Source: an uncultured Pseudanabaenaceae cyanobacterium (GTDB lineage: Bacteria > Cyanobacteriota > Cyanobacteriia > PCC-9006 > JAAUQQ01). From it: 64,000 bases of DNA. Shown piece by piece: positions 8,669 through 27,711 of this stretch; the first letter of the stretch is position 1, and each line of letters starts with the position of its first letter. The notes under the pieces were generated by a model. It did not search any database. It was not told the origin of the DNA and saw nothing but the letters and a program-made list of their open reading frames with translations. The translations under genes were made by a program, and so were the position numbers. The DNA lies in NCBI GenBank assembly GCA_938017515.1, contig CALIJJ010000030.1, positions 6,360 to 70,359 of the forward strand, in the 5' to 3' direction.

Positions 8669-9634
8669 CTACTGAATGAATTCCTCAGGGGAACCGGGGG
8701 CATTGGTGTTCCGATTCGGGGGATGTTGGTACGTTCCGGGTAGGGGATCCTGTTCGACTAACAGGTAGCGTTCGCCCCAGCCGCCATTAATGTCTTGGAC
8801 GCGTAGCCCTGGAGGAGTCGTTTGCCCTGTGGGGAGTGGAATCGGCAACAGTTTAGCCGCTTGGAAATATTGCTCCCCTTCAAGGGAGGTTTTAACCAGG
8901 GTATTGCTGAGGACCAAATGTGTTTCTGCGAGCTTGTTTTGGACAGGTTGTAGTCGATCGGATGCGCCATCAACCACAAGGGTTGCCAGAAAAATGACGT
9001 CTGATTCTGGCTTCCACTGGAGTTGCAGTTCTTTCTGATGGATTTGCCAGCTTTCGAGGTATTGGCCATCCCTAGCAACCTGCCAAAGATTGAGTTTTGA
9101 GGACCAGCTTCCATCGATGATGTCTGTGAGCTGATAGTCCAAAATGACGTAGCTTGGGTCGAGGGCAAGTCGCCGCAGCAGAGCGTTAGATTGCTCGGGA
9201 GATTTTTTCGATAATGATTCAGATAGCACTTCGGTATTGCTGTGGCTTGAAGCGTCATCGACAGGCGTATTCGTGGGCCCGGTTGAGTCTTCAGCTAAAA
9301 AAGATGGAGCCAAAGAAGATGGAGCCAAAGAAGCAGGCGTTAGAGTTGAGCCTTCGAGTTTGAGATAGCGGATGGCAGCGATCGCCAAGCGACTTCCCTC
9401 CGGCAACTGAGTTTGGCCGGACAGCTCATAGCGTCCCGTGGATAAAGCCTCGACATCAAAGCTCAGCTCCACTTTCTTTTGCAGTGAGTCCTCTAGGGCG
9501 GGGTGCCAGGTCAGCCACTGGCCATAATCTTGACCGAGTCTGCGATCGCCCGTGCAGCCCCCCAAGCTCAGACCCAGCATGATAAAGAGGGCAAGATGAT
9601 GGGGTCGGGGGCTCGGAGCATTCAAAACAAACAT
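8669..9634 (-). CDS. hypothetical lipoprotein
   Basis: Signal peptide with a lipobox (LGLSLGGC), followed by a Ser/Pro-rich linker. It is the last gene downstream of the pix operon on the same strand. Confidence 0.5.
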   Translation of the reverse strand: MFVLNAPSPRPHHLALFIMLGLSLGGCTGDRRLGQDYGQWLTWHPALEDSLQKKVELSFDVEALSTGRYELSGQTQLPEGSRLAIAAIRYLKLEGSTLTPASLAPSSLAPSFLAEDSTGPTNTPVDDASSHSNTEVLSESLSKKSPEQSNALLRRLALDPSYVILDYQLTDIIDGSWSSKLNLWQVARDGQYLESWQIHQKELQLQWKPESDVIFLATLVVDGASDRLQPVQNKLAETHLVLSNTLVKTSLEGEQYFQAAKLLPIPLPTGQTTPPGLRVQDINGGWGERYLLVEQDPLPGTYQHPPNRNTNAPGSPEEFIQ

Positions 9635-9684: not shown

Positions 9685-10446
9685 TTAATAGGGGGTGACA
9701 CCGTGGTAACCGCTGGATTCTGGCATGATGGCGTAGAGCAAGTTGGCATTGGCTAAATTGGTTTTGCTGAGGTCGGCTCCCGTAAAATTAACAAACCTCA
9801 AATCTGCCCCTTCAAAGTTGACCCCCTCCAGATTTGCTTCAATTAAAACAGCACCATAAAGGCTGGCTCGATGACCATTGGCATCCCGCAAATTTGCACG
9901 TTTGGCATTTGAATCTCTGAGTTCTGCATCAAATAGATTAGCTCTGATGAGCGTGGCATTTTCTAAGCTAATATTGAGCATTTCGGCATGCTTTAGACTG
10001 GCCTCAGTTAGGTTAGCATTTTGGAGGTTAGCCCCCTGAAGCACTGCTTTTTCAAAGCGTGCTCGGCTAAGATTGGCGTCTTTTAATGTGGTGTTGATGA
10101 GTCGTGCGCCGGAGAAATTGGCCCCCTCCAAATCCGCGCCCATTAGATTGGCTCGGTTGAGGTCAAAGTCGCTGAGATCCGCCCCCCGGAGATTGCAGCC
10201 GATGCAGCGACGGGTGCCCCGCAGTTTTTTTAGGTTAGCGTTGACGCTGGCGGTTTTTGCAGTTTTGCTGGCTTGATACACCGGCTCTGGAAAAAGCTCA
10301 GACAGTGGGCGAGCGTAGTCAGATGATTCATCTGTAACGGGCGATGGTACTGCCGATGAGAGTTCCTGTTTTCGGCTGAGCTGTACCAGCACTGCGATGC
10401 CTAGGGAGCCGATAAACGTTCCGAGCAGCAGGAAGAAAAAGCGCAT
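9685..10446 (-). CDS. pentapeptide-repeat protein with N-terminal TM anchor
   Basis: One N-terminal TM helix followed by long runs of A(D/N)LxG/A pentapeptides (ANLMGADLEGANFSGARL...). It starts 36 nt downstream of the pixL-like gene on the same strand. Confidence 0.75.
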   Translation of the reverse strand: MRFFFLLLGTFIGSLGIAVLVQLSRKQELSSAVPSPVTDESSDYARPLSELFPEPVYQASKTAKTASVNANLKKLRGTRRCIGCNLRGADLSDFDLNRANLMGADLEGANFSGARLINTTLKDANLSRARFEKAVLQGANLQNANLTEASLKHAEMLNISLENATLIRANLFDAELRDSNAKRANLRDANGHRASLYGAVLIEANLEGVNFEGADLRFVNFTGADLSKTNLANANLLYAIMPESSGYHGVTPY

Positions 10447-10482
10447 GGGGTTGGGTTACTCCTAATCCAAGTTCTTTGCACA

Positions 10483-13400
10483 CTAGGTCGTCACCATCAT
10501 GGCCTCTAGTTCTGCTAGCAACTCCTGCTCGTTGTAGGGTTTGGAAAAGTAGGCCGATGCGCCCAGGTTCATGGCTAAGTTGCGGTGTTTGTCGCCGCTG
10601 CGGGAGGTGAGCATGGCAACGGGGAGATGGGCGATCGCCGGATCGGCCTTGACATGAGCCAAAACGCCGTAGCCGTCCAGCCGGGGCATCTCGATGTCGC
10701 AAATAATCGCCTGGACTGAAATGTCACCGGCTAGCAGCTCAAGGGCCTGTTGACCATCCTTGGCCTGTTCTACGCGGTAGCCTGCTTTCTCTAGGGTTAG
10801 GGCCAGGAAGCGCCGTACATTGATGGAGTCATCGACCACCAAAATCGCTGGCTTACGGGCGGAGAGAGGCGCTGGGCGATCGCCGGGAATTTCTGGTGTT
10901 GAGTCAGCATCAGCCAGGTCGGCATGGGCCAGCAGGTCCAGCAGTTCGGGCACGCTGACCAAGGGAATAACGCGGCCATCACCCATGATGGTGCAGTTGC
11001 TGAACCCTGCGGGCATACCGATTTGACCTTCGATGCGGCGAACGGCCACTTCTTGTTCGCCCCAGGAACGCTCGATCTCTAGTCCCACAAGCTCGTTGTT
11101 GAGGGGGGCATTGTTGAGAGGGTCGTTGTTGAGGGGGTCATGGTTATCGCTTGGGCTGGGACGATTTCTCGGGCGCTCAACATTGACGACGAGTAGCGCC
11201 GGGGTCTCGATTTTAGGGTCAGCTTCTAGGCTGTAGGGAGGACGGGGGCAGTTGAACCGCAGCCAAGGCGATAGTTCAATGCGTTCTAGGGATTGACCAT
11301 TCCAGGTGAAGCAGGCGCTGTCCTGTTGGTGTTCGGGGAGCTGCTCAATCAGAATCACTTCAGCGACCCCCTCCGCTGGAATCGCCAGCAGCATGCCCTT
11401 GCATTCGACGACCAGAACGCGCAGCACGGCGAGGCTGAAGGGAACGGCAAGGGTAAAGAGAGTGCCCTGACCGGGTTGTGTATCCACCGAAATTTCTCCT
11501 CGGACGGGCTTGAGGCGCTCGCGCACTACATCCATGCCAACCCCGCGACCGGAGAGGTTCGTGACGCGATCGCTCGTGCTGAAACCTGGTTCAAAAATCA
11601 GCGAAAGCAGCTCCTGCTGACTGGCTTCTGCCAAGAGGGCTTCGTCAAGACCCAAGTTCGTGGCCTTGGCTCGTACCTTGTCTAAGTTGATGCCACGCCC
11701 ATCATCCTGAAATTCGATCAGGGTGCGGTTGCCGCGCTGGCGGGCTCGAATCGTGATGTTGCCCTCGGCGGGCTTGCCCACGGCTTGACGATCGTCAGGG
11801 GATTCGAGACCGTGGTCAAAGGCATTGCGCAGCAGGTGCATGAGCGGTTCTTGCAGCGCCTCCAGCACATTGCGATCGACCAGGGTTTCGCTGCCTTCTA
11901 GTTTGAGCTGAACCCGTTTGCCATGTTCCTGGCTCAGTTCTCGTAGTGCCCTGGGAAAGCGATTGAGTACGTCGGACAGGGGACGCATGCGCAGGTGCGT
12001 GAGCTGATTGCTGAGGTGCTTGGTGGTTTTGTTGAGATTGCGCAGCGTGATGTCGGCTTCTTCCAGGCTCAGGTCCACGTCCGTGGTGACCTCTTGCACC
12101 TGGACAATGGTTTCCATCACCGACTGAGATTGCAGGCTGAGGGTGTCGTATCGGTCCATTTCCAAACGATCAAATTCCAGATGATCCAAGGACGGATGAC
12201 CAAAGCCCGAGCCATTACCCGAGCCATTACCTAAGCCATGGCGTGATGGGAAAACGTTGCTGGCTCCAACCATGGCGGGCTGTTTCATACCAACCGCGAT
12301 TTCGTCATAGGAAGACCGTAGGGAGCGATTGCTCTGGTCCAAGACCTGAACCCGTTGCTTGAGCAATTGGGTAAGGCTTCGGAGGCGATCGCAATACAGG
12401 GCCAGTGCATTGCGTTCAATGGTGAGTTCTCCGAAGAGGTCATTGAGCTGATCGATACGTTTGAGGGAGACGCGCACCGTACGGTCAGCATCTTCGGCTT
12501 CGTGAGAAGGTGCGTTTGCTGAACGATGGGCTGCTGCACCCACGTCTGCTTCTGAGGGCAGTGGCTCTAGGTCCGTTGGTTTGAGTCTGGTGGGCTCCGC
12601 AACAAATTCTGACTGAAACTCGGGTGCTGAATGGGGCTGAACGGCCGCTTGGGATGCGGGAGTTGGGGACGGTTCAAGGGATTCAACGCTTGATTGGGGG
12701 AGAGCCGTGGGTGGCCTAACCGTGTTCCCTGCCGTCGGCAAGACAAGCTCCGTTGAAATTAAGTCGAGTTGCTGAGCTAGGACCAGGGCCTGGGCACGTC
12801 GCCAAGCGTTCAGGGCGGCTTCAGCGACGAGCCCAGCACCATGATGGTCGAGAGCCTCAATGACGGCTTCGCAGAGCTGACTAAAGGCCGAGAGCTGAAG
12901 CATCTCGCCCAGTCCACCGAGTTCGCCCGCGAGGGTAATGAGTTCGCTACGCAACTCAGTCTCCGGCGTTTGTTGGTTTAGAAGCCCTTCGAGCTGCTGA
13001 AGCACCCCTTCCACTTCGGAGCTGAACACAATATCCAGCAACGCCTGACCCCCGTCGTCCCCCCCAAGGACTGAGGCTGCCGTTTCTTCGTCAGCATCAC
13101 CGAGTTCGGTTCGCAGCTGATCAAAAAGCGGATGAGCTTGCTGGGTGAGCCATGTCTCGTCAGGCTGCTGGTCTTGGCGAGCCATCTGGATGACCCGCTG
13201 GAGGCAGTCCACCCCGGCCAGGAGTTGATTCTCTAGAGCAAAACTGATTTCCAAGGACTGGCGCTTGGTTTTGAGCACCTTGAAGGAGTCTTCCAACCGA
13301 TGGGCAAACTCGCTCAGGGTTTGGTAGCCCATCATCGCAGCTCCCCCCTTGATCGAATGGGAGGCGCGCATGGCTTCGTTGATCTTTTGCAAGTCAATAC

Positions 13401-13506
13401 GGCTGCCCGCCAGTCCTAGGACTGCCCCTTCCAATGCACCGAGGTACTCCTGGGCCTCGTCGAGAAACTGACGTTGAATTTCCTGTTCCCTTGGATCCTG
13501 TGCCAT
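10483..13506 (-). CDS. pixL: CheA-like hybrid histidine kinase with C-terminal receiver (PixL/TaxAY-type)
   Basis: N-terminal HPt domain (RASHSIKGGA), dimerisation region, HATPase_c (HLLRNAFDHG, DDGRGI, GRGVGMDVV), CheW-like domain and C-terminal REC (ILVVDDSINVRRF...CDIEMPRLDG...YFSKP). A tandem DPLNN repeat sits in the linker. Confidence 0.85.
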   Translation of the reverse strand: MAQDPREQEIQRQFLDEAQEYLGALEGAVLGLAGSRIDLQKINEAMRASHSIKGGAAMMGYQTLSEFAHRLEDSFKVLKTKRQSLEISFALENQLLAGVDCLQRVIQMARQDQQPDETWLTQQAHPLFDQLRTELGDADEETAASVLGGDDGGQALLDIVFSSEVEGVLQQLEGLLNQQTPETELRSELITLAGELGGLGEMLQLSAFSQLCEAVIEALDHHGAGLVAEAALNAWRRAQALVLAQQLDLISTELVLPTAGNTVRPPTALPQSSVESLEPSPTPASQAAVQPHSAPEFQSEFVAEPTRLKPTDLEPLPSEADVGAAAHRSANAPSHEAEDADRTVRVSLKRIDQLNDLFGELTIERNALALYCDRLRSLTQLLKQRVQVLDQSNRSLRSSYDEIAVGMKQPAMVGASNVFPSRHGLGNGSGNGSGFGHPSLDHLEFDRLEMDRYDTLSLQSQSVMETIVQVQEVTTDVDLSLEEADITLRNLNKTTKHLSNQLTHLRMRPLSDVLNRFPRALRELSQEHGKRVQLKLEGSETLVDRNVLEALQEPLMHLLRNAFDHGLESPDDRQAVGKPAEGNITIRARQRGNRTLIEFQDDGRGINLDKVRAKATNLGLDEALLAEASQQELLSLIFEPGFSTSDRVTNLSGRGVGMDVVRERLKPVRGEISVDTQPGQGTLFTLAVPFSLAVLRVLVVECKGMLLAIPAEGVAEVILIEQLPEHQQDSACFTWNGQSLERIELSPWLRFNCPRPPYSLEADPKIETPALLVVNVERPRNRPSPSDNHDPLNNDPLNNAPLNNELVGLEIERSWGEQEVAVRRIEGQIGMPAGFSNCTIMGDGRVIPLVSVPELLDLLAHADLADADSTPEIPGDRPAPLSARKPAILVVDDSINVRRFLALTLEKAGYRVEQAKDGQQALELLAGDISVQAIICDIEMPRLDGYGVLAHVKADPAIAHLPVAMLTSRSGDKHRNLAMNLGASAYFSKPYNEQELLAELEAMMVTT
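11095..11139. repeat. 15-bp tandem repeat (x3) encoding DPLNN/APLNN linker repeats within pixL
   Basis: gttgttgagggggtc-like units repeated three times, in frame. Confidence 0.7.
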
Positions 13507-13521
13507 AGCTTCACTCCTTCC

Positions 13522-16500
13522 CTAGACCACTTTGAACGTACCGACGGATTCCTGAAGCTGTTCGGTCACGCCCATGGTGTCCTGCAACGACTCGGAAACT
13601 TGGGTTGAAGCAGTCGAGGTTCGGTGGGCGATCGCCGACAGTTTCTTCATCAACTCTGTAATGGATTGGGAGGTATCAGCCTGGGAGACCGTTGCATCGG
13701 AGATCGAATTCACCAATGCGTCAATTTCCTGGGAAACCGATACGATTTGCCCCAGGTTTTGCTTGGCATCCTCGACGAGGTGTGTCCCTTCGACGACCTG
13801 AGTGGTGCCCAGCTCCATGGCCTGGACCACTTCGCTGGTTTCCCGCTGAATGGTTTCGACGATTTGCTCAATTTCTTTGGTCGCGGTGGCGGAGCGCGCC
13901 GCCAGTTCGCCCACCTCTTCGGCAACCACCGCAAAGCCCTGTCCCTGTTCGCCTGCTCGGGCCGCCTCAATGCCTGCGTTAATGGCAAGCAAGTTGGTCT
14001 GCATGGCGATTTGGTTAATCAGATAAACCACCTTCGAAATTTGCTGGGAGGATTCGCCCAAGCGTTTGACCTTCTTGGCGGTTTCGCCGATGGTTTCCCG
14101 CAGGGTCAAGATATTTTCGACCGTACGGTCCATGGACACGCCCCCCGCCACGGCCGTTTCTGCTGCGGTCTGACTGACGGCGGCGGTTTGTCGAGCGCTC
14201 GTGGCCACCGCCTGAATGGAGCGGGTCATGCCCTCAACGGAGTTGAGCGCTGCCGTAATCTCCTCGGACTGGCGTAGCGCTTCATGGGCCAGTTGGCGAA
14301 TTTCGCCGCCACTCTCACCCACGGATTGATTCACCTGGATGGCGGAGTCTTTCACCTGAGTGACGACTTGCCGCAGATTTTCCACGATGGAGTTGAAGAA
14401 GTCGGCCACGGTACCAATGGCTCCTTCGCTCACATTGGCCCGCACGGTCAGATCACCATCAGCCACATGTTCGACATCGCCCAGCAGCTCGATGAGCTGC
14501 ATTTGCAACGTTTCGTTTTGTTGTCGCTGGGTTTCGGACATTGCTTCTGCATCGATGCGAGCCTGCTCCTGGGCACGAGCCAGTGACGCCTGCTCCATGG
14601 CATAGCCTAATTGAATTGCAACTTGCTGGGCAAAGTTGACTTCATTCTCTTGCCATTCCCGTGGACTTTGGCACTGATGAATGCACAACAGGCCCAATAG
14701 TGTTTCGTTGACCAACACCGGAGCCACGAGATTTGCCTTAACTTCAAAGGGATCTAACTCCTGGCGATAGCAGTCTTCGAGTCCTGACGTTGCGATGTTG
14801 CTGATGACATGAACCCGTCCCTGGCGGTAGGGTTCCACATACTTTTCTGCAAAGCAAGGGTCGGCGACTTCTCGGCCGATGACCGATGACCAGCCCGGTA
14901 GCACGGATTCCGCTGCGATTTTGCCGCTGTAATCCTCGTCAAACTGATAGATGACCGCGCGGTCTGCATCTAGGGTTTCCCGGATGCCATCCACTGCGGC
15001 CTTGAAAATTTCTGCATCGTTGGGGGTCTCTCGCATGGCCACTGTGATGTTGGCCAACTGGCGTGCTTGGTGAGCTTGGGTTTCTTGGCGACGGGCTTCG
15101 TTGGCAAGCGATGTCTCGGATTCAACAATACTGTCCGCCATACCGTTGAACGTCATGGCAAGCTGACCCACTTCATCCACACTGTAGATGTTGGCGCGCT
15201 GGCTGCGATCGCCCTCGGCAAAGGCTTCCGTTGCACGCCCTAGATTGAGCAGTGGCTTGAGCACGGTTCGTCGGAACACAATCGCCCACAGGCCAATGAG
15301 ACCTGCGGAAATACCCAGCACAAGCAATTTTTGCATCAAACTCCGGTTCAGAAGTTCTGTGATGATGCGCTCGGGCGTACCGTGAACCAAAATGGCGTGG
15401 GTTGATGCCGGATCATAAATCGGAACATCGCGGCGAGTGTTGGAATAGTCGGTGTAGATACGAGAGGGCTCAGCCTGGACGGCCACGGTGTGCATCTGCC
15501 CATTAATCGCCATCCGTTCAATGAATGTTTTGCCGGGACTTGCGACGGCACGTTTCAGCAAGGCGTCGTTGTTGAGCTGAACATCACTCTTATAGAGGTT
15601 GATGTCTTGCCCCTCCTCAACTAGGATTCCCGATGACAACGTAAACTCGCCGTCCTCTGTATGTTGGTAAATCGCACTGTAGCCCTTTTTCAAGGATTGC
15701 AAAACGGCTCGTGCGATCGAAGGTTTTCCGTTGATGATGTCACCGAGGACCAGGGCACCAATGGTTTGCGTCGAATCCTGTGGGTCAAAAATAGGGGTTA
15801 CAACATAGCGAATGAGGATGTCCTCTGGGTCCATCCCTTCTGCGAGGGGAGCACCTTCCTGTTTGATTTCTGACCAAGGGACAATTTCGTTGGCTTTGAC
15901 CTGGCGTCCTTGCTGGAGGGTCAGGCTGACCAAACCGGCGGGATCAAAGGTTTCACCCGTGCGATCGCGATTGGCACTGGCGAGGATTTCGAGGTCTGTT
16001 CCAACCAGAGTTGCATACTCAATCTGACGGGCATTCACTTCATTGCGCAGAATCTGGGTGACGCGAATGGCGGCATCCGGTGCCATCGTTTCACCGTATT
16101 GGTCCGTCAGAGCAGCGTTCACCAAGGCCAAATTGTCTGACTGCCCCCGGGAACCAAACGCCATTTGGTTCACTTTGGTGCGGTACTCAATGTCAGTGAT
16201 CGCCACCTCCGAGCGAGCAAGCTCGACGAGCTGCTGACGGAGACTGCTGTTGAGAATCCAAATGGTGCCAATGCCCAAACCCACCAGGGGAATGAGTTCG
16301 GAAATGATCATCGCTAGGAGCTGTTTCCGACCAATGGGCAGATTCGTGAACCAGCGCTGTAAGGGAAAGCGTCGCGGTTTGATCGGCTTTTGGAGCGATC
16401 CCTCCTGCGGCTGCGGTGGAATTGCCTCGGGTTCCAGGGATGCCCTAGAGCGATTGCTCAAATCACCATGAGCCTGTTCCGAAGGAGCGGAGGACCGATC

Positions 16501-16560
16501 CATTGCTTCGGACTGAGGAGCTAGTGGCTTTTTCTTGGGTAACCCGTTGGTGAGTGTCAT
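13522..16560 (-). CDS. pixJ: methyl-accepting chemotaxis protein with periplasmic sensor, HAMP and cyanobacteriochrome-like GAF (PixJ-like)
   Basis: Two TM helices flank a periplasmic domain of about 300 aa, followed by HAMP and then a GAF domain. The GAF carries a DXCF-type motif ([10 protein letters not shown]) and a canonical-Cys region ([23 protein letters not shown]). A C-terminal MCP signalling domain follows ([37 protein letters not shown]). Confidence 0.85.
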
Positions 16561-16665
16561 TGGTTTTTCTAGCGTGGCGAATGGGCAAGGGCAGGGGAGG
16601 CGCGAAGTCAGGTGCGAGGGGAAGGAACAGTAAGGGGGACAGAAGACTCGGGAGAAAGCTGAGGA

Positions 16666-17232
16666 CTATTGCAAGCCAAGCGATCGCAACACCGGCGCTT
16701 GTAAAATGGCTGCCCCATCTAAAATTAGAGGGCTGGGCTCGCCTGCTTCTGTGGTGCGACTGCCCGCCACAAATGAGGTCAGCGGACTGGGCAAAGATGG
16801 GGGAGCGGATTGGGTTTCTTCCTCCCCCAGCCACTGCATGCTTTCGACCTGGTTGACCGCCAGACCCAGAGCCGCGGAACCCGAGCGTAGAATGATGACA
16901 CTGTGCTGCTGAGTGCTGGGTTCTAGGCGGGAGATTCCCAGTAGCTGAGCGAGGTCCACGAGCCAGAAAATACGATTGCCACGGTTCATTAATCCCAAGA
17001 CGCAGCTCGGCATATTGGGCATGGGGCTAAGCCGTTGAACGGACAGCGACAAAACCTCTTGAATGTCGCTCATCTGTATTAGGGCGGGAGCCGAGGGCTG
17101 CGATTCGGAGGCAGGTAGTTGGAACTGCAAGTAGCGTTCACCGGATTTTGTGCCACTTCGATTTTTGCTGCGATCGCTAAGGGAAGGCAGTGATTGAGTG
17201 ATCGATGGGGCATTAAGCTCGGCCTGGGCCAT
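16666..17232 (-). CDS. pixI: CheW-like coupling protein (PixI-like)
   Basis: 188 aa CheW fold pattern (VLSLSVQRLSP...VLGLMNRGNRIFWLVDLAQLLG). It lies between the MCP and CheY genes. Confidence 0.8.
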   Translation of the reverse strand: MAQAELNAPSITQSLPSLSDRSKNRSGTKSGERYLQFQLPASESQPSAPALIQMSDIQEVLSLSVQRLSPMPNMPSCVLGLMNRGNRIFWLVDLAQLLGISRLEPSTQQHSVIILRSGSAALGLAVNQVESMQWLGEEETQSAPPSLPSPLTSFVAGSRTTEAGEPSPLILDGAAILQAPVLRSLGLQ

Positions 17233-17310
17233 GGCAATAGCGTCCTGGGGAGATTGCGAAAAGGAGGATAGAAAATCCCTGGAGATAGTTTGAAAAAAAG
17301 CTGCTCCGCT

Positions 17311-17691
17311 TTAGCTCAGGATGGATTGAATGACCTGAACCAATTCATCTCGCGTAAAGGGCTTTGTGACGTAGGCCGCTGCGCCCTGTTTCATCGCCCA
17401 CAGGCGATCGATTGCCTCGCTCTTTGACGAACACACCACAATGGGAATGGTGGCTGTCTTCGGATCTCGTTTAAGGCTGCGACACAGCTCAAATCCGCTC
17501 ATGTCGGGCATCACAATGTCCGTCACAATGAGGTCGGGTAGATTCTCATTGATGCGATTTAGGGCATCCTTGGCACTAACGGCATTAAAAACAGAAAAGC
17601 CGCTTTCACGGAGATAGTGGCTAATAAGCTCCATCTCAGAGAGCGTATCTTCAACCACTAAAACGGTAGATTTTTTGACAACAGTATTCAT
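17311..17691 (-). CDS. pixH: CheY-like single-domain response regulator (PixH-like)
   Basis: 126 aa REC domain with LVVED...DLIVTDIVMPDMSG...YVTKP. Confidence 0.85.
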   Translation of the reverse strand: MNTVVKKSTVLVVEDTLSEMELISHYLRESGFSVFNAVSAKDALNRINENLPDLIVTDIVMPDMSGFELCRSLKRDPKTATIPIVVCSSKSEAIDRLWAMKQGAAAYVTKPFTRDELVQVIQSILS

Positions 17692-17814
17692 AAGCTTGTC
17701 TTCCCTGATGATTAAAAAATGAGCTGCATCTTTTCAATCTATAGAGGCCATAGAAGCCATAGAAATTGTTAGCAGCATCGTTGCCCTAGGCCATTGCGAT
17801 GGTGTCGAAACGGC

Positions 17815-19032
17815 CTAAACCGATAGATTGCGGAACACGATTTTGAGCAACTCTGAACGGTTGAAGGGTTTGGTGAGATAGCCTGATGCCCCGACCAGCT
17901 TTGCCCTTGCCCGATCCACAAAACCCGTATTGCCTGTCACCATGATGATGGGAACCGATTTGAACGCCGGATGGCGGCGCAATAATGAGCAGAGTTCATA
18001 GCCATCTAGGCTGGGCATTTCCACATCGAGCAGCACCAAGTCCGGTTTGCAGCGCACCACCTGCATCAGCGCTCGCACCGGGTCATTGATCATGAACACC
18101 GAGAAATCGTCCTCTTCCAGATAGCTATGAATGAGCTTCAGGATGCTGGGACTGTCGTCGACACAAACGACGCGATACCGCTTTGTCGAGGAGGCCGTTG
18201 CTGCTCCTGACCCATTCTGCTGGGGAGCAATTGTCCGGCCTGGCGACTGTGCCGGTGCTGGGGAGAAGGCACCGGGCTGGAACGGCAACGATGCAGGGGT
18301 AGAGGGGGAGGAAAGTGAGTCAGCCTTGAAGGGCTGTCCGGTGTTGAAATTCTGTGCAGGCTTGAACTTCTGGTCGGATTTGAAGTTCTGCTCAGGTTGG
18401 AAGGATTGAACCGAGGATGCCGATTGCTCTGCTTTGAAGGAAATCGGCGCAGAACCGCCGTTCAGTAGACCCAGGCGAGGCGCTTCGGCTGGGTCATCAA
18501 GTTCCCCGACATTTTGAATGATATTGCGTAGGTTTAGGCGACAAACGCTAAACCAGTCTTCCAACTGGGCTCGCTCCACAATGTCGTAGCTGCCTGTGGA
18601 GACAGAGAGCAGCGAACGAATGGATTCCTTCGCCAAATTTTCCACCAGGCCCGCCGCCTGAAGCGGTGTGAGGTACTGTTGCTCAAGCAACCACTGGATG
18701 GCCTGATAATCGGGACTCAGTGCCGAAGGCATGGGCTGACGTGTCTCGAAGAGCAGTCTGACCTGCACCCGTACCGCACTGACGAGGGAGGGCACCACGC
18801 GCCCCATGTGCCTGAGGTGGCGCTCTAGGCGATCGAAGGCAGCATCTGCTGCAGAGGCATAGACCAACTCGCCCTCTTCCAAATACAGCCGCCAGGATTT
18901 TGAGCCACTGTAGATCATGAGACAGCCATTTGTCTTTTGCCCGGACACTTGGGCCAGGAGCGTCAATGGATTAAATCTCAAGAAAGAGGGGTCGCTTTGG
19001 GCGTAAAGGCTCGCCATAATTCGATGCTCCAC
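17815..19032 (-). CDS. pixG: PatA-type response regulator (N-terminal PATAN domain + C-terminal REC; PixG/PilG-like)
   Basis: N-terminal PATAN-like domain, a low-complexity linker with QNFK repeats, and a C-terminal REC (VVCVDDSPSILKL...LDVEMPSLDG...YLTKP). It is the first gene of the operon. Confidence 0.8.
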   Translation of the reverse strand: MEHRIMASLYAQSDPSFLRFNPLTLLAQVSGQKTNGCLMIYSGSKSWRLYLEEGELVYASAADAAFDRLERHLRHMGRVVPSLVSAVRVQVRLLFETRQPMPSALSPDYQAIQWLLEQQYLTPLQAAGLVENLAKESIRSLLSVSTGSYDIVERAQLEDWFSVCRLNLRNIIQNVGELDDPAEAPRLGLLNGGSAPISFKAEQSASSVQSFQPEQNFKSDQKFKPAQNFNTGQPFKADSLSSPSTPASLPFQPGAFSPAPAQSPGRTIAPQQNGSGAATASSTKRYRVVCVDDSPSILKLIHSYLEEDDFSVFMINDPVRALMQVVRCKPDLVLLDVEMPSLDGYELCSLLRRHPAFKSVPIIMVTGNTGFVDRARAKLVGASGYLTKPFNRSELLKIVFRNLSV

Positions 19033-19302
19033 CTAGGACAAGGTCGTGGTTTTGCGAAACGCTGAAGAATGAAAAGTTAGAGTTAACTCAGGGGAAACTC
19101 GAATCGTTGCAGATTGTCTAGCCTTGGCCAGAACCACGGATACTCAACAATTTTGCTAGGGCTAAAAACCGCAAAATAAAAAGATATAGTCATCTGAAAC
19201 TCGTGAATCTCACCACGCTCTTGAGATGAATAATAAATAATTACTGATCTAAACCTATCATGTCGAACTCCCAGATAAACCCGTATTAAAATATTTTTTT
19301 TC

Positions 19303-19316
19303 GTCAATTAATTGAC
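19303..19316. promoter_or_regulatory. perfect 14-bp palindrome GTCAATTAATTGAC in the pixG upstream region
   Basis: Seen directly. It lies about 270 bp upstream of the pixG start, inside an AT-rich 450-bp intergenic region. Confidence 0.3.
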
Positions 19317-19485
19317 AATGAAAAGAACCCAGATGGATGTGTTGGAAGGACTTTTGAGTTTTTATCATGATTGATCAATGCCTTTGTAATTCTTTTGACG
19401 CTGTTTCTTTGAATTTGTATCACTAAAGACAGTTTTTGTTTGATTTCTGGGAGCTTGATGGCATTGAGAATATTGCTTGAGATCG

Positions 19486-22233
19486 TTATTGTTCACCATA
19501 GTGACTAAGGATTTGTTTGATTTTTCCGCGCTGCTGGCTTTGTAACTCTTTGGGGAAGCTCAGCTCTAGGGCGGCGCGATCGCTCATCTGGGATGACGAA
19601 AACTCTAAACTCTGAACCCGAGCAATGAGACTGTAGGGGGTGGATTGGCTCGGATCAAAGACGAGGATGCCGAGTGTCGGTCGCAAAATTTCTAAATCGC
19701 TGATTTCATCAAAGTCAGGGCAGTCGATTTCGATGCGGAGATCCTGTAGCCCCAGTTCGGTAATTTGTCCGATTTTAGTCTCGCTACCCCAGCCTTCCCA
19801 ATAGAGTTGGGCCTGCGATCGCCCCCGCTTTCGCATCTGCACCCCCATCTCTGGGCGGAACTGTTCGAAGACACGGCGAATGCTCGTGGCAATAAACTGT
19901 AGGGATTCCAGTGGAATGTCCTGCTCATCCCGCTTTTGGGAATACCACTCGTCTACGTCGGAATACAGGACGACGGTCAGGTCATCCCGCTGAATCGGTG
20001 TGGGGTCCAGGAACTGGAGCGATAGTAAGGCTTCGAGTTGGCGCGTTCCGGCGGCGCGAACCACCTGGGCATTGAGCAGAGCCCGTGCTCCAAAATCCCC
20101 TACGAATTCCACCCGAACTTCGCCAGGGATATTAGGCCAAGACGGCAGTAAAATCTGCGTACCTCCTTCGCTTAAATTGATCGTTTTTCCCGGCCAACTT
20201 TGCCCGTCAGCATGAATAATGGCTTGGATTTGTCGCGGTAGCCGATGGAATTTCCGTAGCTGAGGTTGTTCAAAGGCGACGAGACAGGCTGCGATGACTA
20301 GGATTAAGTTAAACAGACACCAAAACGCATTGATTAAAACGGCTTGGGTATCGGCAGGGCTCCACCATAGCCAAAGCGGAACGGCTAGGAGAGAGGCAGC
20401 ACCGATGACGCCTAAGACGACCAAATAACGAATGCTATCAACGTCAAACGATCGCTTTGTTACGGTCAAGCCCTTGTCGGTGACATTGAACGAACCCAGT
20501 TTGGGATTGATCAGAGCTAATAGCGTGACGATGCCCGCCTGAAATGACATCGCAAATTCGTAAATCTCATTCCAGAATGAGAATCGAACGTGTTTATAGG
20601 GAATGTAGTTGGTCTGCATCGACAGGATGACGTAGGGCAAGGCGTAAAAGAGGGTTTCAACCCCTAGACCTTTGACCGAATTAATGCCGAACAATAAATA
20701 AAGGGCTGGTGCAATTAAGTACATCAGCCGTGGAAAGCCAAAAAAGAAATGGGAGGTTGCGCTGAAGTAGCAAATACGTTGGGGAATGGTCAGTTTGAGC
20801 TGTCGATTGAACAGAGGATTTTCTAACCGTAAAATCTGGGCCATGCCCCTGGCCCAACGCACTTGCTGACCCACGTAGGACGAAAACATTTCTGGAGCGA
20901 GACCCGCCACCATGATTTTGTCGTAGTAGATCGTTTTGAGACCTCTGGAGTGGAGCCGCAATGCTGTGTGGCAGTCTTCCGTGACGGTTTCTGTCGCAAT
21001 ACCACCGACCTCCAGCAGACTGTCACGGCGAATAATGGCAGCGGACCCACAAAAGAACGTGGCGTTCCAGGTGTCGTTGCCCTTTTGTAAGACCTTGTAA
21101 AACAGCTCGTTGCCGACCGGAATTCGTCCCCGGGTGCGTAGATTGCGCTCGAAGGGATCAGGGTTGTAGAACCAATGCGGCGTCTGGACTAGGGCAACTC
21201 TCGGATCTTGGAAAAAACCGACGGTTTCACTGAGGATTTTGCAGGCGGGAATATGGTCACAGTCGAGGATCAGCACCAAGTCGCCTTGGGTTTTCGGCAG
21301 GGCCGTGTTGATGTTGCCTGCCTTGGCATGTTCGTTGTTGTCACGGGTGAGCATGGTGCAGTCCAGTTCGTCGCACATCTGTTGTAGCGATCGACGGCGT
21401 TCCCGATACTTTTCCGCCCGACCATCATCCAAAACGTAAATCGCGGTTTTGGGATAGTGAATGGAGAGGGCCCCGATGACGGTCTTGCGTACGATGTCCA
21501 CATCTTCGTTGTAGGTGGGGATGTAGATATCGACCGTGGGCCAGTCCGCTTCGGGAATGGTGTCCAGGGGGATGGAGCGGCGATCGCGAATCCTCAGGGT
21601 CTGGAAATAGGCCAAAAACAACGTCGCAATGGCGTAGAGTTCCGCCGCATAGAGCAGCAGTGAGAAAAACGTGTTGAGGATGCCCTCAAAGTTGAGCGTG
21701 TAAAACGTGCGGTAATACCAATAGCGCAGCGTCATGATGGTGCTGAGGGCAATCAGCAACAGGTGGAACCGCTCGCTGGTTCGCTGATTGTTTCGGATGC
21801 CTTCGGGGGAATCGTCCTGGGGTTGATTGTCCTCCAGTTGCACCAGCAGTGTGCCGAGTAAAACGACGCCGACGGCAAGGACAGCCTGCTGTTGCCAGGT
21901 GTTTGCCCGCAGTGTGATCAGCGGAACGCTGGCCCAGCCCAATAGCCCCAGCAACAAGAGCAGCGGGCGACGGCCCAGCCAGCCCAGCCCTTGTTCAAAT
22001 CCTGTGGGCAGTTGCTCGGTCAAGAACTGGGTCAGCGGTGGTGCCCAGCGATGGAAGCCAAACCTGGTCTTGGGATAAACGGGATGTTGCGATCGCCGTT
22101 TATCCCTGGACCCCAGGCTAGCCTCAGGTGTCTGACTGGGGTTTGTCAAACTAGATGAGGCAGGGGAAGATATGGCTCGATGGGGCTCAGAGGCGGATGG
22201 GTTGTGACGGGTAGAGGGATCATTAACCAGCAT
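19486..22233 (-). CDS. bcsA: cellulose synthase catalytic subunit (GT2, BcsA-like) with C-terminal PilZ domain
   Basis: GT2 motifs (DDG, DCDH), the QxxRW motif (QQVRWARG), multiple TM helices and a C-terminal PilZ-like motif (RLPRQ...NLSEGG). It has long N- and C-terminal extensions. Confidence 0.85.
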   Translation of the reverse strand: MLVNDPSTRHNPSASEPHRAISSPASSSLTNPSQTPEASLGSRDKRRSQHPVYPKTRFGFHRWAPPLTQFLTEQLPTGFEQGLGWLGRRPLLLLLGLLGWASVPLITLRANTWQQQAVLAVGVVLLGTLLVQLEDNQPQDDSPEGIRNNQRTSERFHLLLIALSTIMTLRYWYYRTFYTLNFEGILNTFFSLLLYAAELYAIATLFLAYFQTLRIRDRRSIPLDTIPEADWPTVDIYIPTYNEDVDIVRKTVIGALSIHYPKTAIYVLDDGRAEKYRERRRSLQQMCDELDCTMLTRDNNEHAKAGNINTALPKTQGDLVLILDCDHIPACKILSETVGFFQDPRVALVQTPHWFYNPDPFERNLRTRGRIPVGNELFYKVLQKGNDTWNATFFCGSAAIIRRDSLLEVGGIATETVTEDCHTALRLHSRGLKTIYYDKIMVAGLAPEMFSSYVGQQVRWARGMAQILRLENPLFNRQLKLTIPQRICYFSATSHFFFGFPRLMYLIAPALYLLFGINSVKGLGVETLFYALPYVILSMQTNYIPYKHVRFSFWNEIYEFAMSFQAGIVTLLALINPKLGSFNVTDKGLTVTKRSFDVDSIRYLVVLGVIGAASLLAVPLWLWWSPADTQAVLINAFWCLFNLILVIAACLVAFEQPQLRKFHRLPRQIQAIIHADGQSWPGKTINLSEGGTQILLPSWPNIPGEVRVEFVGDFGARALLNAQVVRAAGTRQLEALLSLQFLDPTPIQRDDLTVVLYSDVDEWYSQKRDEQDIPLESLQFIATSIRRVFEQFRPEMGVQMRKRGRSQAQLYWEGWGSETKIGQITELGLQDLRIEIDCPDFDEISDLEILRPTLGILVFDPSQSTPYSLIARVQSLEFSSSQMSDRAALELSFPKELQSQQRGKIKQILSHYGEQ

Positions 22234-22236
22234 CGT

Positions 22237-24732: not shown

Positions 24733-24850
24733 TGCTCAGCTCCTGTCGATAACACACCCATGCTGCTCTCCCTCAAGGCTCAAACGTTGCTCTAATCCAT
24801 CCGTGCTCTAATCCATCCGTGTTCTAATCCATCCGTTCTGGCTGCCTGGC

Positions 24851-26419: not shown

Positions 26420-26472
26420 AAAAATTGCTGTTTGCCCTGATATCCCGTGCCTTAAACCTGATGTCCCTTGCC

Positions 26473-27711
26473 TTAAAACTGGGCCCTGAGACGAATACCC
26501 AGCACCGTCTCTGTAAACGCTTCGCGCTCCTGAAGCGACACGGCAACGCGGACATCGTCCCGAATGGGAACGTCATAAAAGGCTTCCAGGACATCTGGGC
26601 GATTGCCTGTGCGTAAATCATTCTGGGAGAGTTCTCGCCCGTAGCCGAGTCCGAGGCGATCGCCCTCCCAAGCCACATTGAGCCAGTTGAGTCCAAAACT
26701 GTAGGTGTCGCCTGCCTCATCCAATTCAATATTGCGATAGCGACTGTAGCGACCAAACAGACCGAGGTTGGCGGCCGGGATAAAGACCTCTCCATTGACG
26801 CCGTAGGCTTCTTCGCGATCGCCATCCCTCAGCCCAAACTGTCCGTCACCGCGATCGAATTGGAAAATCTCGTCAAAACCGCTGCGATTGCCCGCATCTC
26901 GAGCCGTGGTGTAGGTTCCACGCACAATCACATTGTCCCAGCGAACGCCGAGTTCCCCCGCAAAGGCATCAAGAGACCAATCCTCTAACGCTCGACTGGA
27001 CGAAAATCCCGATGCTTTCAGCTCCAGCGCATCGACCGGACTCCAGTTCACGAGTAAACCTGGCTTGGCTCCAATGCCTGCTGCATTGAGGGCAGGGCTG
27101 GTTTCAAAGACTGGATTGAAGAAGTGTGTTGTCTTGTCCTTCGAAAAGCTATTGCGATCGAAGTAGGAGGTCAAATCGATCAACCCCGCTACAAACCGTA
27201 GCTCCGGCATGGGTTCAGGAGCGTAGGCAACATAGAGTTCGTTCAGCTTGAGGCTCAAATCAGACTCCGTGAAGGCCTCCCCAAAAAGAAGGTCAGCCTC
27301 CGCGCCCAGCAGTAGCGAATCGCCCATGGGGTAAAGCACGGTTCCCCTCAGTCGGCCGGAACTTTCGCCATTCTCTTGAAAGAAAACGGCTTGCCCTCGC
27401 GTTTCAAGGGGACCATATGCCTGGGATATTTCTGGACGTAATGCGTCGTTGTCTTCAAAAATTTGAGCGTGCAAATCTGATGCATCGACAGAGATACGCT
27501 GCGGCAACGTTTCTGCTCGCTCGATCGGCACAATTACCGTCTCAAAAATGTCTTGAGGTGGTGCCTGTGCAGATACAGTTGTGAGGACACCTGTACTGAC
27601 ACACAAGAATGTGGCAACTGAAAACGGGTGCCCAATGACGGAAGTCTTGAGCCCTAAAAAATACACGCTACTCCTAAGTTGCTCGTTTGGATGCTCAAAC
27701 GATGCTGCCAA
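26473..27711 (-). CDS. outer-membrane beta-barrel protein (porin / BcsC C-terminal-like)
   Basis: Alternating amphipathic beta-strand pattern, rich in aromatic residues and Gly, ending in a C-terminal Phe (RLRAQF). The start lies 53 nt upstream of the TPR gene on the same strand. Confidence 0.55.
   Translation of the reverse strand: MAASFEHPNEQLRSSVYFLGLKTSVIGHPFSVATFLCVSTGVLTTVSAQAPPQDIFETVIVPIERAETLPQRISVDASDLHAQIFEDNDALRPEISQAYGPLETRGQAVFFQENGESSGRLRGTVLYPMGDSLLLGAEADLLFGEAFTESDLSLKLNELYVAYAPEPMPELRFVAGLIDLTSYFDRNSFSKDKTTHFFNPVFETSPALNAAGIGAKPGLLVNWSPVDALELKASGFSSSRALEDWSLDAFAGELGVRWDNVIVRGTYTTARDAGNRSGFDEIFQFDRGDGQFGLRDGDREEAYGVNGEVFIPAANLGLFGRYSRYRNIELDEAGDTYSFGLNWLNVAWEGDRLGLGYGRELSQNDLRTGNRPDVLEAFYDVPIRDDVRVAVSLQEREAFTETVLGIRLRAQF

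What the first reader, a model, noticed from the sequence alone, without database searches (positions are those of the whole stretch)
9685..19032. pix/tax-type phototaxis operon whose MCP combines a periplasmic sensor with a CBCR-like GAF
Seen in sequence. Seven co-directional genes are tightly spaced: PatA-type response regulator, CheY, CheW, MCP, CheA-REC hybrid, pentapeptide-repeat protein, and a lipoprotein gene that is possibly co-transcribed. The gene order matches cyanobacterial pixGHIJL/pilGHIJL systems, which are known to steer type IV pilus motility and phototaxis.

Inference. This MCP has a periplasmic domain of about 300 aa between two TM helices, possibly Cache-like. It also has a single cytoplasmic GAF with a DXCF motif, which suggests dual chemical and light input. 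The two membrane and secreted genes downstream of pixL are not part of the canonical operon.
Basis: partly seen in the sequence, partly recalled or inferred. Interest (0 to 1): 0.55.

Follow-up and report, generated by a model that had tools for sequence, protein, structure and literature searches.

The report
TePixJ-like light-sensing operon inside cellulose cluster
This is an ordinary cyanobacterial light-steering (Pix/Tax) signalling operon whose receptor has the same layout as the known photoreceptor TePixJ; the new point is that it sits inside a cellulose-secretion gene cluster in several related genomes.

Summary
On the minus strand lie a PATAN-REC (PatA-type) regulator, CheY, CheW, a 1012-aa MCP, a CheA-REC hybrid, a membrane-anchored pentapeptide-repeat protein and a lipoprotein. 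The lipoprotein (8669-9634) lies outside the stated coordinates.

The MCP reads TM1, ~300-aa periplasmic domain, TM2, HAMP, one GAF, MCP signalling domain. The periplasmic domain is a double-Cache fold (AF2 pLDDT 94.9; all top PDB fold matches are dCache sensors). The GAF aligns without gaps to TePixJ's GAF (E 1.6e-36) and keeps both chromophore cysteines. The Tyr replacing the usual His is a published natural variant linked to blue/teal photocycles.

The "combination" is not new. TePixJ is drawn as TM/HAMP/GAF/MCP, and every homologous cyanobacterial MCP I retrieved carries the same periplasmic domain.

The operon lies between porin-like/TPR/BcsB/BcsA-PilZ genes and a lipoprotein whose homologues neighbour bcs clusters in 37 of 39 informative metagenomic loci. 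The bcsA-to-patA junction recurs in orthologous loci and in rearranged variants.

Verdict: a known kind of system, with an apparently undescribed and possibly functional link to cellulose secretion. Interest is moderate.

The parts
26473..27711 (-). Porin-like protein (412 aa, no Pfam hit). It is the first gene of the conserved cellulose-secretion block.
   Evidence: Homologues at 44-67% identity sit next to the TPR/BcsB/BcsA genes in L002, L005, L019, L020 and most lipoprotein-anchored metagenome loci. A precomputed faint OprB hit is recorded on the L002 orthologue.
24851..26419 (-). TPR protein (522 aa). Together with the porin-like gene it is probably a split BcsC-like export component.
   Evidence: Pfam TPR_14, TPR_19 and TPR_16 at E 1e-12 to 6e-15. 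Its position is conserved in all bcs-linked loci. The BcsC analogy is an inference.
22237..24732 (-). BcsB, the cellulose synthase periplasmic subunit.
   Evidence: Pfam BcsB 2e-94.
19486..22233 (-). BcsA cellulose synthase with a C-terminal PilZ (c-di-GMP receptor) domain.
   Evidence: Pfam Glycos_transf_2 1e-21, Cellulose_synt 3e-15 and PilZ 7e-13.
19033..19485 (-). AT-rich 453-nt spacer between bcsA and patA. It probably holds the tax operon's own promoter.
   Evidence: Two sigma-70-like sites on the minus strand at 19318-19290 and 19266-19237, but the count does not exceed shuffles. Sequence read. No Rfam family.
17815..19032 (-). PatA-type response regulator (PATAN/DUF4388 plus REC), PixG/PilG-like.
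   Evidence: Pfam. The database gene model starts 5 codons later, giving 400 aa.
17311..17691 (-). Single-domain CheY (PixH-like).
   Evidence: Pfam REC 2e-27.
16666..17232 (-). CheW (PixI-like).
   Evidence: Pfam CheW 1e-20.
13522..16560 (-). MCP, 1012 aa: TM1, dCache, TM2, HAMP, DXCF-GAF, MCP signalling domain.
15340..16251 (-). Periplasmic double-Cache domain of the MCP (aa 104-407).
   Evidence: AF2 pLDDT 94.9, pTM 0.90. Foldseek top hits are all dCache ligand-binding domains (MkcA, DvhD, DctB, TlpA, KinD, Tlp3, LuxQ), with E down to 3.6e-8 and probability 1.0. Pfam dCache_3 scores 23.7 bits against a cut-off of 25.7.
15124..15276 (-). HAMP domain (aa 429-479).
   Evidence: Pfam 5e-16.
14599..15012 (-). 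DXCF cyanobacteriochrome-type GAF (aa 517-654). The second Cys is Cys569, the first (canonical) Cys is Cys597, and Tyr598 replaces the usual His.
   Evidence: Gapless 142-aa alignment to TePixJ GAF 3VV4/4GLQ, E 1.6e-36. Residue table.
13633..14178 (-). MCP signalling domain (aa 795-976).
   Evidence: Pfam 5e-41.
10483..13506 (-). CheA-REC hybrid kinase (PixL/PilL/HmpE-like).
   Evidence: Pfam Hpt, H-kinase_dim, HATPase_c, CheW and REC.
9685..10446 (-). Pentapeptide-repeat protein with an N-terminal signal/anchor helix.
   Evidence: Pfam Pentapeptide 3e-51. Hydrophobic segment at aa 1-24. Orthologues follow cheA in L003 and L005, and the pair is inverted in L002. It lies next to the lipoprotein gene in 10 of 80 metagenome loci.
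8669..9634 (-). Lipoprotein of a cyanobacteria-wide uncharacterised family that accompanies bcs clusters.
   Evidence: 73 homologues, all 'hypothetical' with no Pfam domain. Cys27 is invariant. It neighbours bcs genes in Calothrix PCC 7507 and Trichocoleus desertorum. 37 of 39 metagenome loci with at least 5 kb of upstream sequence hold bcs-cluster genes.

Best explanation
This is a cyanobacterial Pix/Tax-class chemosensory operon (patA-type RR, cheY, cheW, mcp, cheA-REC) whose receptor has the TePixJ layout.

Shown:
- The domain composition of the operon.
- A dCache periplasmic fold in the MCP.
- A GAF that is a close relative of TePixJ's DXCF cyanobacteriochrome domain. It keeps Asp567, Cys569, Arg582, Cys597, Leu602 and Asn610, and has Tyr598 at the known His/Tyr tuning position.

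Inferred mechanism:
- The GAF binds phycocyanobilin at Cys597 and may isomerise it to phycoviolobilin.
- Cys569 adds reversibly to C10, giving a blue-absorbing dark state and a teal or green photoproduct.
- This light signal, possibly combined with a periplasmic ligand or protein partner sensed by the dCache domain, passes through HAMP to the MCP tip and changes CheA-REC autophosphorylation.
- CheA phosphorylates the PATAN-REC and CheY regulators, which act antagonistically on the type IV pilus motor (PilB/PilC), as shown for Synechocystis PixG/PixH. The result is steering of gliding relative to light.

Context:
- The operon has no cheB or cheR.
- It lies between bcsA-PilZ and a bcs-associated lipoprotein gene, so it is nested in a cellulose-secretion locus. 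This suggests, but does not show, that pilus-driven movement and cellulose export are coordinated.
- The pentapeptide and lipoprotein genes belong to that bcs neighbourhood rather than to the signalling pathway.
For: - Domain hits. TM topology.
- dCache model and fold matches, and the near-threshold dCache_3 hit.
- TePixJ GAF is the best PDB match, gapless, with both Cys in register 28 residues apart.
- Tuning residues are identical to TePixJ apart from H523Y and Q526E.
- 8 of 10 closest orthologues keep the whole residue set.
- TePixJ architecture (PMC6955287).
- PixG/PixH action on PilB1/PilC (PMC12288463).
- The order porin-TPR-BcsB-BcsA-PatA-CheY-CheW-MCP-CheA is conserved in L002, L003/4, L005, L006 and L017, while the outer flanks all differ.
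- The bcsA-to-patA junction also occurs in the rearranged loci L033, L043 and L051. The tax operon abuts the lipoprotein/pentapeptide genes in L044, L048/49 and L068.
- The lipoprotein family is linked to bcs clusters.
Against: - No experiment exists. Bilin binding, the photocycle, the dCache ligand and the output are all inferred.
- Two close orthologues have lost the first Cys (P0021) or the whole motif (P0024), so light input is dispensable in some lineages.
- The 453-nt spacer and promoter-like sites suggest that bcs and tax are separate transcription units.
- bcs-tax adjacency could be inherited synteny within one order. It is absent from L007, L008 and L018, and partly broken in L016.
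- I could not retrieve full-length TePixJ, SyPixJ1, PtxD, HmpD or PilJ, so orthology to a particular named system is not established.
- In N. punctiforme, recent work is cited as questioning PixJ's role in phototaxis (PMC9090330).
Confidence: 0.72

Rival explanations
1. The system's main output is cellulose secretion rather than pilus steering. Under this reading it is a chemosensory pathway dedicated to the Bcs machine, functionally comparable to Wsp control of cellulose in Pseudomonas. The PATAN-REC or CheY regulators would act on BcsA/BcsB or on the periplasmic accessory proteins, so that light or a periplasmic cue switches cellulose export on or off.
For: - The operon is nested between bcsA-PilZ and the bcs-associated lipoprotein.
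- The linkage persists through several rearrangements.
- The outer flanks are not conserved.
- In Thermosynechococcus, blue/green cyanobacteriochromes control cellulose-dependent aggregation (PMC5871770 abstract).
Against: - Every characterised PATAN-REC regulator of a tax operon acts on the pilus motor.
- No GGDEF or EAL output is encoded in the operon, although BcsA carries PilZ.
- A separate promoter region is likely.
- There is no precedent in the literature I searched.
Confidence: 0.13
2. The GAF is a non-photoactive relay module. The system would then be a chemo- or mechanosensory pilus regulator of the PilJ/HmpD (tax3/hmp) kind, driven by the dCache domain or by an indirect cue such as proton motive force.
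For: - Many related MCPs of the same layout (the 940-960 aa 'PilJ' group) have degenerate GAFs lacking both Cys.
- Two close orthologues have lost the first Cys.
- The dCache domain has many invariant residues across all groups, which implies a conserved input.
Against: - The query and 8 of 10 closest orthologues keep every chromophore-pocket residue tested.
- The GAF matches TePixJ at E 1.6e-36 without gaps.
- Tyr at the His position is compatible with, and promotes, the two-Cys photocycle.
- The signalling domain is closer to the multi-GAF photoreceptor MCPs (~70% identity) than to the Cys-less group (52-62%).
Confidence: 0.12
3. The bcs-tax neighbourhood is inherited gene order with no functional meaning. 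Two independent systems happen to be adjacent in one lineage of Leptolyngbya-like cyanobacteria.
For: - All loci with the linkage come from relatives whose MCP signalling domain is at least 54% identical to the window's.
- The intergenic spacers are long: 453 nt here and 330-1900 nt elsewhere.
- Other tax operons lack bcs neighbours.
- L078 shows bcsA followed by 3 kb without patA.
Against: - Linkage survives at least four different arrangements while the outer flanks are unrelated.
- Both sides of the tax operon are bcs-associated genes.
Confidence: 0.3

Closest known systems
TePixJ (Tll0569) of Thermosynechococcus, a blue/green DXCF cyanobacteriochrome MCP
   Same: - The GAF is the best solved-structure match: E 1.6e-36, gapless over 142 aa, about 50% identical by eye from the printed alignment.
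- Both Cys are in register (C494/C522 correspond to C569/C597).
- D492, R507, L527 and N535 are kept.
- Both have the TM/HAMP/single GAF/MCP layout and similar size, 940 vs 1012 aa.
   Different: - His523 is Tyr and Gln526 is Glu.
- There is an extra N-terminal cytoplasmic stretch of about 75 aa.
- The full-length TePixJ sequence and its locus could not be retrieved, so similarity of the periplasmic domain and gene order was not tested.
- No bcs neighbourhood is reported for TePixJ.
Synechocystis tax1 (pixGHIJ1J2L) phototaxis operon
   Same: - Same gene order: PATAN-REC, CheY, CheW, MCP, CheA-REC.
- PixJ1 has two TM segments, GAF domains and an MCP module, and binds bilin in a DXCF GAF.
- Output is through PixG/PixH to PilB1/PilC.
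   Different: - There is one MCP here, not two tandem ones. Tandem MCPs are seen in L007 and L018.
- There is one GAF, not two.
- The operon is nested in a bcs locus.
- Sequence orthology was not tested.
Multi-GAF MCPs of Stenomitos, Tildeniella and other Leptolyngbya-like cyanobacteria (1150-1680 aa; P0002-P0042)
   Same: - The locus is orthologous: TPR-BcsB-BcsA-PatA-CheY-CheW-MCP-CheA in L006 and L017.
- The signalling domain is about 70% identical and the dCache about 44%.
- Many of their DXCF GAFs also carry Cys-Tyr.
   Different: - They carry 2-5 GAFs, the first with a DPL...CHC motif.
- They are followed by a CheW-like gene and a 354-358 aa pentapeptide-related gene instead of the pentapeptide-lipoprotein pair.
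Nostoc hmp / Synechocystis tax3 (PilJ/HmpD) systems
   Same: - Same operon plan.
- Database homologues labelled 'PilJ' share the dCache-HAMP-GAF-MCP layout.
   Different: - Their GAFs lack both Cys, and reviews state that tax2 and tax3 MCPs lack a cyanobacteriochrome domain.
- Their signalling domains are only 52-62% identical to the query.
- No hmpF-like gene is seen beside this operon.
Blue/teal DXCF cyanobacteriochromes of the AM1_1499g1/AM1_6305g1 lineage
   Same: [quoted passage not shown] Published mutagenesis links this Tyr to reversible Cys ligation.
   Different: Those are Acaryochloris GAF domains in other protein contexts. Identity to the query was not measured.
Bacterial Bcs cellulose secretion systems (BcsA-BcsB-BcsC)
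   Same: BcsA with PilZ, BcsB, and TPR plus porin-like genes in one co-directional block.
   Different: - The BcsC role appears to be split into two genes.
- There is no GH8/BcsZ in the window, although it is present in Calothrix and Trichocoleus.
- A chemosensory operon is inserted.
- A 2025 review describes cyanobacterial operons as typically lacking bcsB (PMC12430437).

Membership tests
Cyanobacterial Pix/Tax/Pil-class chemosensory operon | Gene order: PATAN-REC regulator, CheY, CheW, MCP, CheA. | tested here: met
   Same order in 9 related loci.
Cyanobacterial Pix/Tax/Pil-class chemosensory operon | CheA is a hybrid with a C-terminal receiver domain. | tested here: met
   REC at aa 888-1000, E 7e-23.
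Cyanobacterial Pix/Tax/Pil-class chemosensory operon | No CheB or CheR adaptation enzymes in the operon. | tested here: met
   None among the operon genes or the other 39 ORFs scanned with Pfam in the window.
Cyanobacterial Pix/Tax/Pil-class chemosensory operon | Controls type IV pilus motility or phototaxis. | not testable with these tools
   Needs knockouts and motility assays.
DXCF cyanobacteriochrome GAF | GAF homologous to bilin-binding CBCR GAFs. | tested here: met
   The top 15 PDB sequence hits are CBCR GAFs or derivatives. TePixJ is best at 1.6e-36.
DXCF cyanobacteriochrome GAF | First (canonical) Cys on the helix that attaches ring A. | tested here: met
   Cys597 aligns with TePixJ C522.
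DXCF cyanobacteriochrome GAF | Asp-X-Cys-Phe motif with the second Cys. | tested here: met
   D567-P-C569-F570 aligns with D492-P-C494-F.
DXCF cyanobacteriochrome GAF | His following the first Cys. | tested here: not met
   Tyr598 occupies this position. It is a documented His/Tyr variable position, and natural blue/teal DXCF domains carry Tyr, so this is not disqualifying.
DXCF cyanobacteriochrome GAF | Covalent bilin binding and reversible photoconversion. | not testable with these tools
   Needs recombinant expression with PCB and spectroscopy.
TePixJ-like architecture | TM segments, HAMP, one or two CBCR GAFs, then the MCP domain. | tested here: met
   compared with the published descriptions. 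A second HAMP before the MCP domain, as described, was not detected by Pfam.
TePixJ-like architecture | Orthology to Tll0569 over the full length and shared locus structure. | not tested
   Full-length TePixJ was not retrievable.
dCache (double Cache) extracytoplasmic sensor | Pfam dCache model above the gathering score. | tested here: inconclusive
   dCache_3 E 4e-5, 23.7 bits against a 25.7 cut-off. A precomputed PF14827 hit exists on homologue P0025.
dCache (double Cache) extracytoplasmic sensor | A long N-terminal helix followed by two PAS-like alpha/beta modules, placed between two TM helices. | tested here: met
   AF2 pLDDT 94.9 with matching secondary-structure order. 83 PDB matches at E<=0.001; the top 27 are all dCache domains, with TM scores of 0.36-0.66. 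TM helices.
dCache (double Cache) extracytoplasmic sensor | Binds a small-molecule ligand in the membrane-distal module. | not testable with these tools
   Needs ligand screening. LuxQ-type partner-protein sensing is an alternative.
PilJ/HmpD (tax3/hmp) type MCP | No bilin-binding cyanobacteriochrome domain. | tested here: not met
   The query keeps both Cys and the pocket residues, unlike the Cys-less 'PilJ' group.

The most novel reading that the evidence does not exclude
The Pix/Tax operon is an integral, selected part of a cyanobacterial cellulose-secretion locus. Under this reading, a light-sensing (blue/teal-green CBCR) and dCache-sensing chemosensory pathway couples type IV pilus activity to Bcs-dependent cellulose export, or directly gates the Bcs machine. 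The periplasmic pentapeptide protein and the bcs-associated lipoprotein would feed information on cellulose export back to the MCP's dCache domain, as LuxP does for LuxQ.
Probability: 0.2. Interest if true: 0.7.

Novelty: new variant of a known kind. Interest (0 to 1): 0.4.

Why it matters
On its own, the operon adds one more TePixJ-like photoreceptor system. It is useful mainly as a natural Cys-Tyr DXCF domain with a predictable blue/teal or blue/green photocycle.

The nesting in a bcs locus could matter more. How cyanobacteria coordinate pilus-driven gliding with polysaccharide secretion is still open. Cellulose-dependent aggregation in Thermosynechococcus is already known to be controlled by light colour through c-di-GMP. 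A chemosensory operon that stays linked to bcsA-PilZ through rearrangements gives a concrete locus where this coupling can be tested genetically.

Two further points:
- The uncharacterised lipoprotein family becomes a candidate new Bcs accessory protein.
- Canonical bcsB-containing clusters are common in filamentous cyanobacteria, contrary to a recent review's generalisation.

Tried and rejected
1. Retrieving full-length TePixJ and its locus. A protein search with the TePixJ GAF returned only short fragments. The single genome-contig scan found seven Nostocales loci that are not MCP operons and no Thermosynechococcus. Orthology to named model systems therefore remains untested.
2. Organism name. 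Cluster look-up gave no names for the window protein or its closest orthologues. Only relatives of the multi-GAF group are named.
3. Lipoprotein function. There was no Pfam or NCBIfam hit. The AF2 model has a confident beta-rich core (pLDDT 75), but there was no PDB fold match better than E 0.04.
4. RNA elements. No Rfam family was found anywhere in the window, so there is no c-di-GMP riboswitch in the bcsA-patA spacer.
5. Terminators. No minus-strand terminator-like site lies in any intergenic gap from patA to the lipoprotein gene. The two minus-strand sites lie inside genes, and the counts are below the shuffled expectation, so the scan is uninformative.
6. I first treated His-to-Tyr as a possible defect of the chromophore pocket. 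I rejected this after reading that Tyr at this position promotes reversible Cys ligation.
7. I first read Calothrix and Trichocoleus as lacking a tax operon at the bcs locus. I withdrew this because bcsA is cut by the locus edge there, so what follows bcsA is unseen.
8. NCBIfam gave only generic sub-threshold hits for all seven proteins.

Full report
**Observation**

The interval holds six co-directional minus-strand genes, and a seventh lies just outside it. Pfam assigns them as follows:
- 17815-19032: PATAN (DUF4388) plus receiver, a PatA-type regulator.
- 17311-17691: single receiver (CheY).
- 16666-17232: CheW.
- 13522-16560: HAMP, GAF and MCPsignal, the MCP.
- 10483-13506: Hpt, dimerisation, HATPase, CheW and receiver, a CheA hybrid.
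- 9685-10446: pentapeptide repeats behind an N-terminal hydrophobic helix.
- 8669-9634: a protein with no Pfam or NCBIfam hit. It has a lipobox-like LGGC whose Cys27 is invariant in 41 homologues.

The gaps between genes are 123, 78, 105, 15, 36 and 50 nt. No minus-strand terminator-like site falls in any of them, although that scan has no statistical power here.

**The MCP**

Hydropathy gives TM1 at about aa 79-103 and TM2 at about aa 408-431. I modelled the ~300 residues between them with an alignment of 42 homologues. The model scored pLDDT 94.9 and pTM 0.90, with a long helix followed by two alpha/beta modules. Foldseek against the PDB returned 83 matches at E<=0.001. The best were all double-Cache ligand-binding domains: MkcA, DvhD, DctB, TlpA, KinD, Tlp3, LuxQ, TlpQ and PctD, with E down to 3.6e-8 and probability 1.0. 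Pfam dCache_3 scores 23.7 bits, just under its 25.7-bit cut-off. The "possibly Cache-like" guess is therefore correct at fold level.

**The GAF**

Searched against PDB sequences, the GAF matches TePixJ's GAF best (3VV4, 4GLQ, 6P58) at E 1.6e-36, over 142 residues without a gap. Other cyanobacteriochrome GAFs follow. With an offset of 75 residues the correspondences are:
- D567-P-C569-F matches TePixJ D492-P-C494-F.
- C597 matches C522.
- R582, L602 and N610 match R507, L527 and N535.
- Only H523 (Tyr598 here) and Q526 (Glu601 here) differ among the pocket residues named in the TePixJ literature.

I first took the Tyr to be a possible defect. A preprint on DXCF colour tuning says otherwise. [quoted passage not shown] Natural blue/teal DXCF domains carry Tyr at this "His/Tyr position". 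TePixJ is the Arg/Leu/Asn blue/green type (bioRxiv 10.1101/2020.12.27.424465). The query is Arg/Leu/Asn plus Tyr, so I predict a two-Cys photocycle with a blue-absorbing dark state and a teal or green photoproduct. This is inference from sequence only.

**Is the combination unusual?**

It is not. TePixJ is described as a 940-residue protein with TM, HAMP, GAF (435-584) and MCP modules (PMC6955287). An in-silico survey names this the "TePixJ-like architecture". Synechocystis PixJ1 likewise has two TM segments, GAFs and an MCP module (PMC5812497).

In my own homologue set, the ~300-aa periplasmic domain is present at 39-70% identity in essentially every related cyanobacterial MCP and in some histidine kinases. 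The homologues fall into three groups:
- Group A: close orthologues with one DXCF GAF and Cys-Tyr. The signalling domain is 73-87% identical to the query.
- Group B: multi-GAF proteins of 1150-1680 aa, about 70% identical, many also with Cys-Tyr GAFs.
- Group C: proteins of about 940-960 aa, often labelled PilJ, whose GAF has lost both Cys. These are 52-62% identical.

The query belongs with the photoreceptor groups, not with the Cys-less PilJ-like group. In group A, 8 of 10 members keep the full residue set. P0021 has lost the first Cys and P0024 has lost the whole motif.

Directly upstream on the same strand are BcsA with a PilZ domain (19486-22233), BcsB (22237-24732), a TPR protein (24851-26419) and a porin-like protein (26473-27711).

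The block porin/TPR/BcsB/BcsA/PatA/CheY/CheW/MCP/CheA recurs in three further group A loci (L002, L003/4, L005) and two group B loci (L006, L017). The genes outside the block differ in each case. It is absent from the tax operons of L007, L008 and L018. In L016 it is partly dissolved.

The pentapeptide-lipoprotein pair follows cheA in the window, L003 and L005. In L002 the pair is present but inverted, so co-transcription with cheA is not obligatory.

**The lipoprotein is a bcs companion**

It has 73 homologues across cyanobacteria, all unannotated. In Calothrix PCC 7507 and Trichocoleus desertorum the homologue lies divergently beside porin-like/TPR/GH8/BcsB/BcsA-PilZ genes.

A metagenome scan anchored on the lipoprotein gave 80 loci. 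Of the 39 with at least 5 kb upstream, 37 contain bcs-cluster genes. The same set shows three other arrangements that also link tax to bcs:
- lipoprotein, then BcsB, BcsA, PatA (L033, L043, L051).
- a tax operon convergent on the lipoprotein/pentapeptide genes next to the porin gene (L048/49).
- a tax operon convergent on the lipoprotein/pentapeptide genes next to a complete bcs cluster (L068).

L078 shows bcsA followed by 3 kb without patA. In most loci, including Calothrix and Trichocoleus, bcsA is cut by the locus edge, so what follows it is unknown. I therefore make no claim about how widespread the bcsA-patA junction is.

**Mechanism**

- Shown: domain composition, fold and residue conservation.
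[quoted passage not shown] Phosphorylated PixG (PATAN-REC) binds PilB1/PilC and PixH antagonises it (PMC12288463).
- Inferred here: light and perhaps a periplasmic cue modulate CheA-REC, and the two regulators bias pilus activity.
- Not shown: whether the neighbouring cellulose machinery is coordinated with, or controlled by, this pathway. The 453-nt AT-rich spacer with promoter-like sites and the absence of any Rfam element suggest a separate promoter.

**Literature check on the linkage**

Searches combining cellulose synthase, BcsB, PilZ, PATAN, chemotaxis-like systems, PixJ and cyanobacteria found no paper describing a tax operon inside a bcs cluster. A 2025 review of cyanobacterial cellulose synthesis does not mention chemotaxis and states that cyanobacterial operons typically lack bcsB. 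A 2025 review of cyanobacterial type IV pili does not link chemotaxis-like systems to cellulose. The searchable library is limited to open-access papers, so this is absence of evidence only.

**Verdict**

The finding is real and correctly classified, but its headline feature is the standard TePixJ-type layout. What is new is a variant context: a Cys-Tyr DXCF/dCache receptor operon nested in a canonical-type bcs locus, flanked by a previously unnoticed bcs-associated lipoprotein family. I rate it a new variant of a known kind, with interest 0.4.

Noticed in passing
window 19486-27711 (minus strand): A co-directional porin-like/TPR/BcsB/BcsA-PilZ cellulose-secretion cluster with a canonical BcsB (Pfam 2e-94). 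Homologous clusters appear in Calothrix PCC 7507, Trichocoleus desertorum and dozens of metagenomic cyanobacterial contigs. A 2025 review says cyanobacterial operons typically lack bcsB.
   Followed up: partly
window 8669-9634; loci L019-L100: The uncharacterised lipoprotein family (no Pfam; invariant Cys27, W177, W184, a GWG motif at 285-287) neighbours bcs-cluster genes in 37 of 39 informative loci. It is a candidate new Bcs accessory protein. The AF2 core is beta-rich with no PDB fold match.
   Followed up: yes
P0002-P0042 (e.g. L006 10001-14029, L017 10001-15049): At the orthologous locus, other genera carry MCPs with 2-5 GAFs. The first GAF has a DPL...C-H-C motif instead of DXCF, and the later ones are DXCF with Cys-Tyr or Cys-His. 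GAF number therefore varies widely at a single locus.
   Followed up: partly
P0021, P0024 (L005 10001-13249): Two close single-GAF orthologues have lost the first Cys (C to F) or the whole DXCF/Cys set, while keeping the dCache domain, the operon and the bcs context. Light input seems dispensable in some lineages.
   Followed up: partly
L008 4116-12868 (Leptolyngbya sp. NIES-3755, AP017308.1): This tax operon has an MCP that Pfam recognises as dCache_1-HAMP-GAF-MCP. A second MCP with a Cys-less GAF is encoded after cheA.
   Followed up: no
P0104-P0108: The same periplasmic dCache-like domain plus HAMP is fused to histidine-kinase outputs in Calothrix PCC 7507, Roseofilum and others (37-42% identity). 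It is a shared cyanobacterial sensor module.
   Followed up: no
P0113: A Chromera velia (alveolate) UniRef protein matches the periplasmic domain at 35% over 204 aa. This could be contamination or a gene of plastid or cyanobacterial origin.
   Followed up: no
P0008, P0147: Proteins labelled as coming from a 'Verrucomicrobia bacterium' MAG are clearly cyanobacterial (a multi-GAF PixJ-like MCP and a lipoprotein homologue). This suggests a mis-binned contig.
   Followed up: no
Genome-contig scan: A scan with the TePixJ GAF peptide patterns found no Thermosynechococcus locus in the species-representative genome collection. This was unexpected for a well-known gene. One paper notes that pixJ is deleted in a T. 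vulcanus laboratory strain.
   Followed up: no
window 13522-16560 and 17815-19032: Start codons are ambiguous. Database gene models start the MCP 19 codons downstream (993 aa) and the PatA-type gene 5 codons downstream at an ATG (400 aa). A 1012-aa MCP version also exists in the database.
   Followed up: partly
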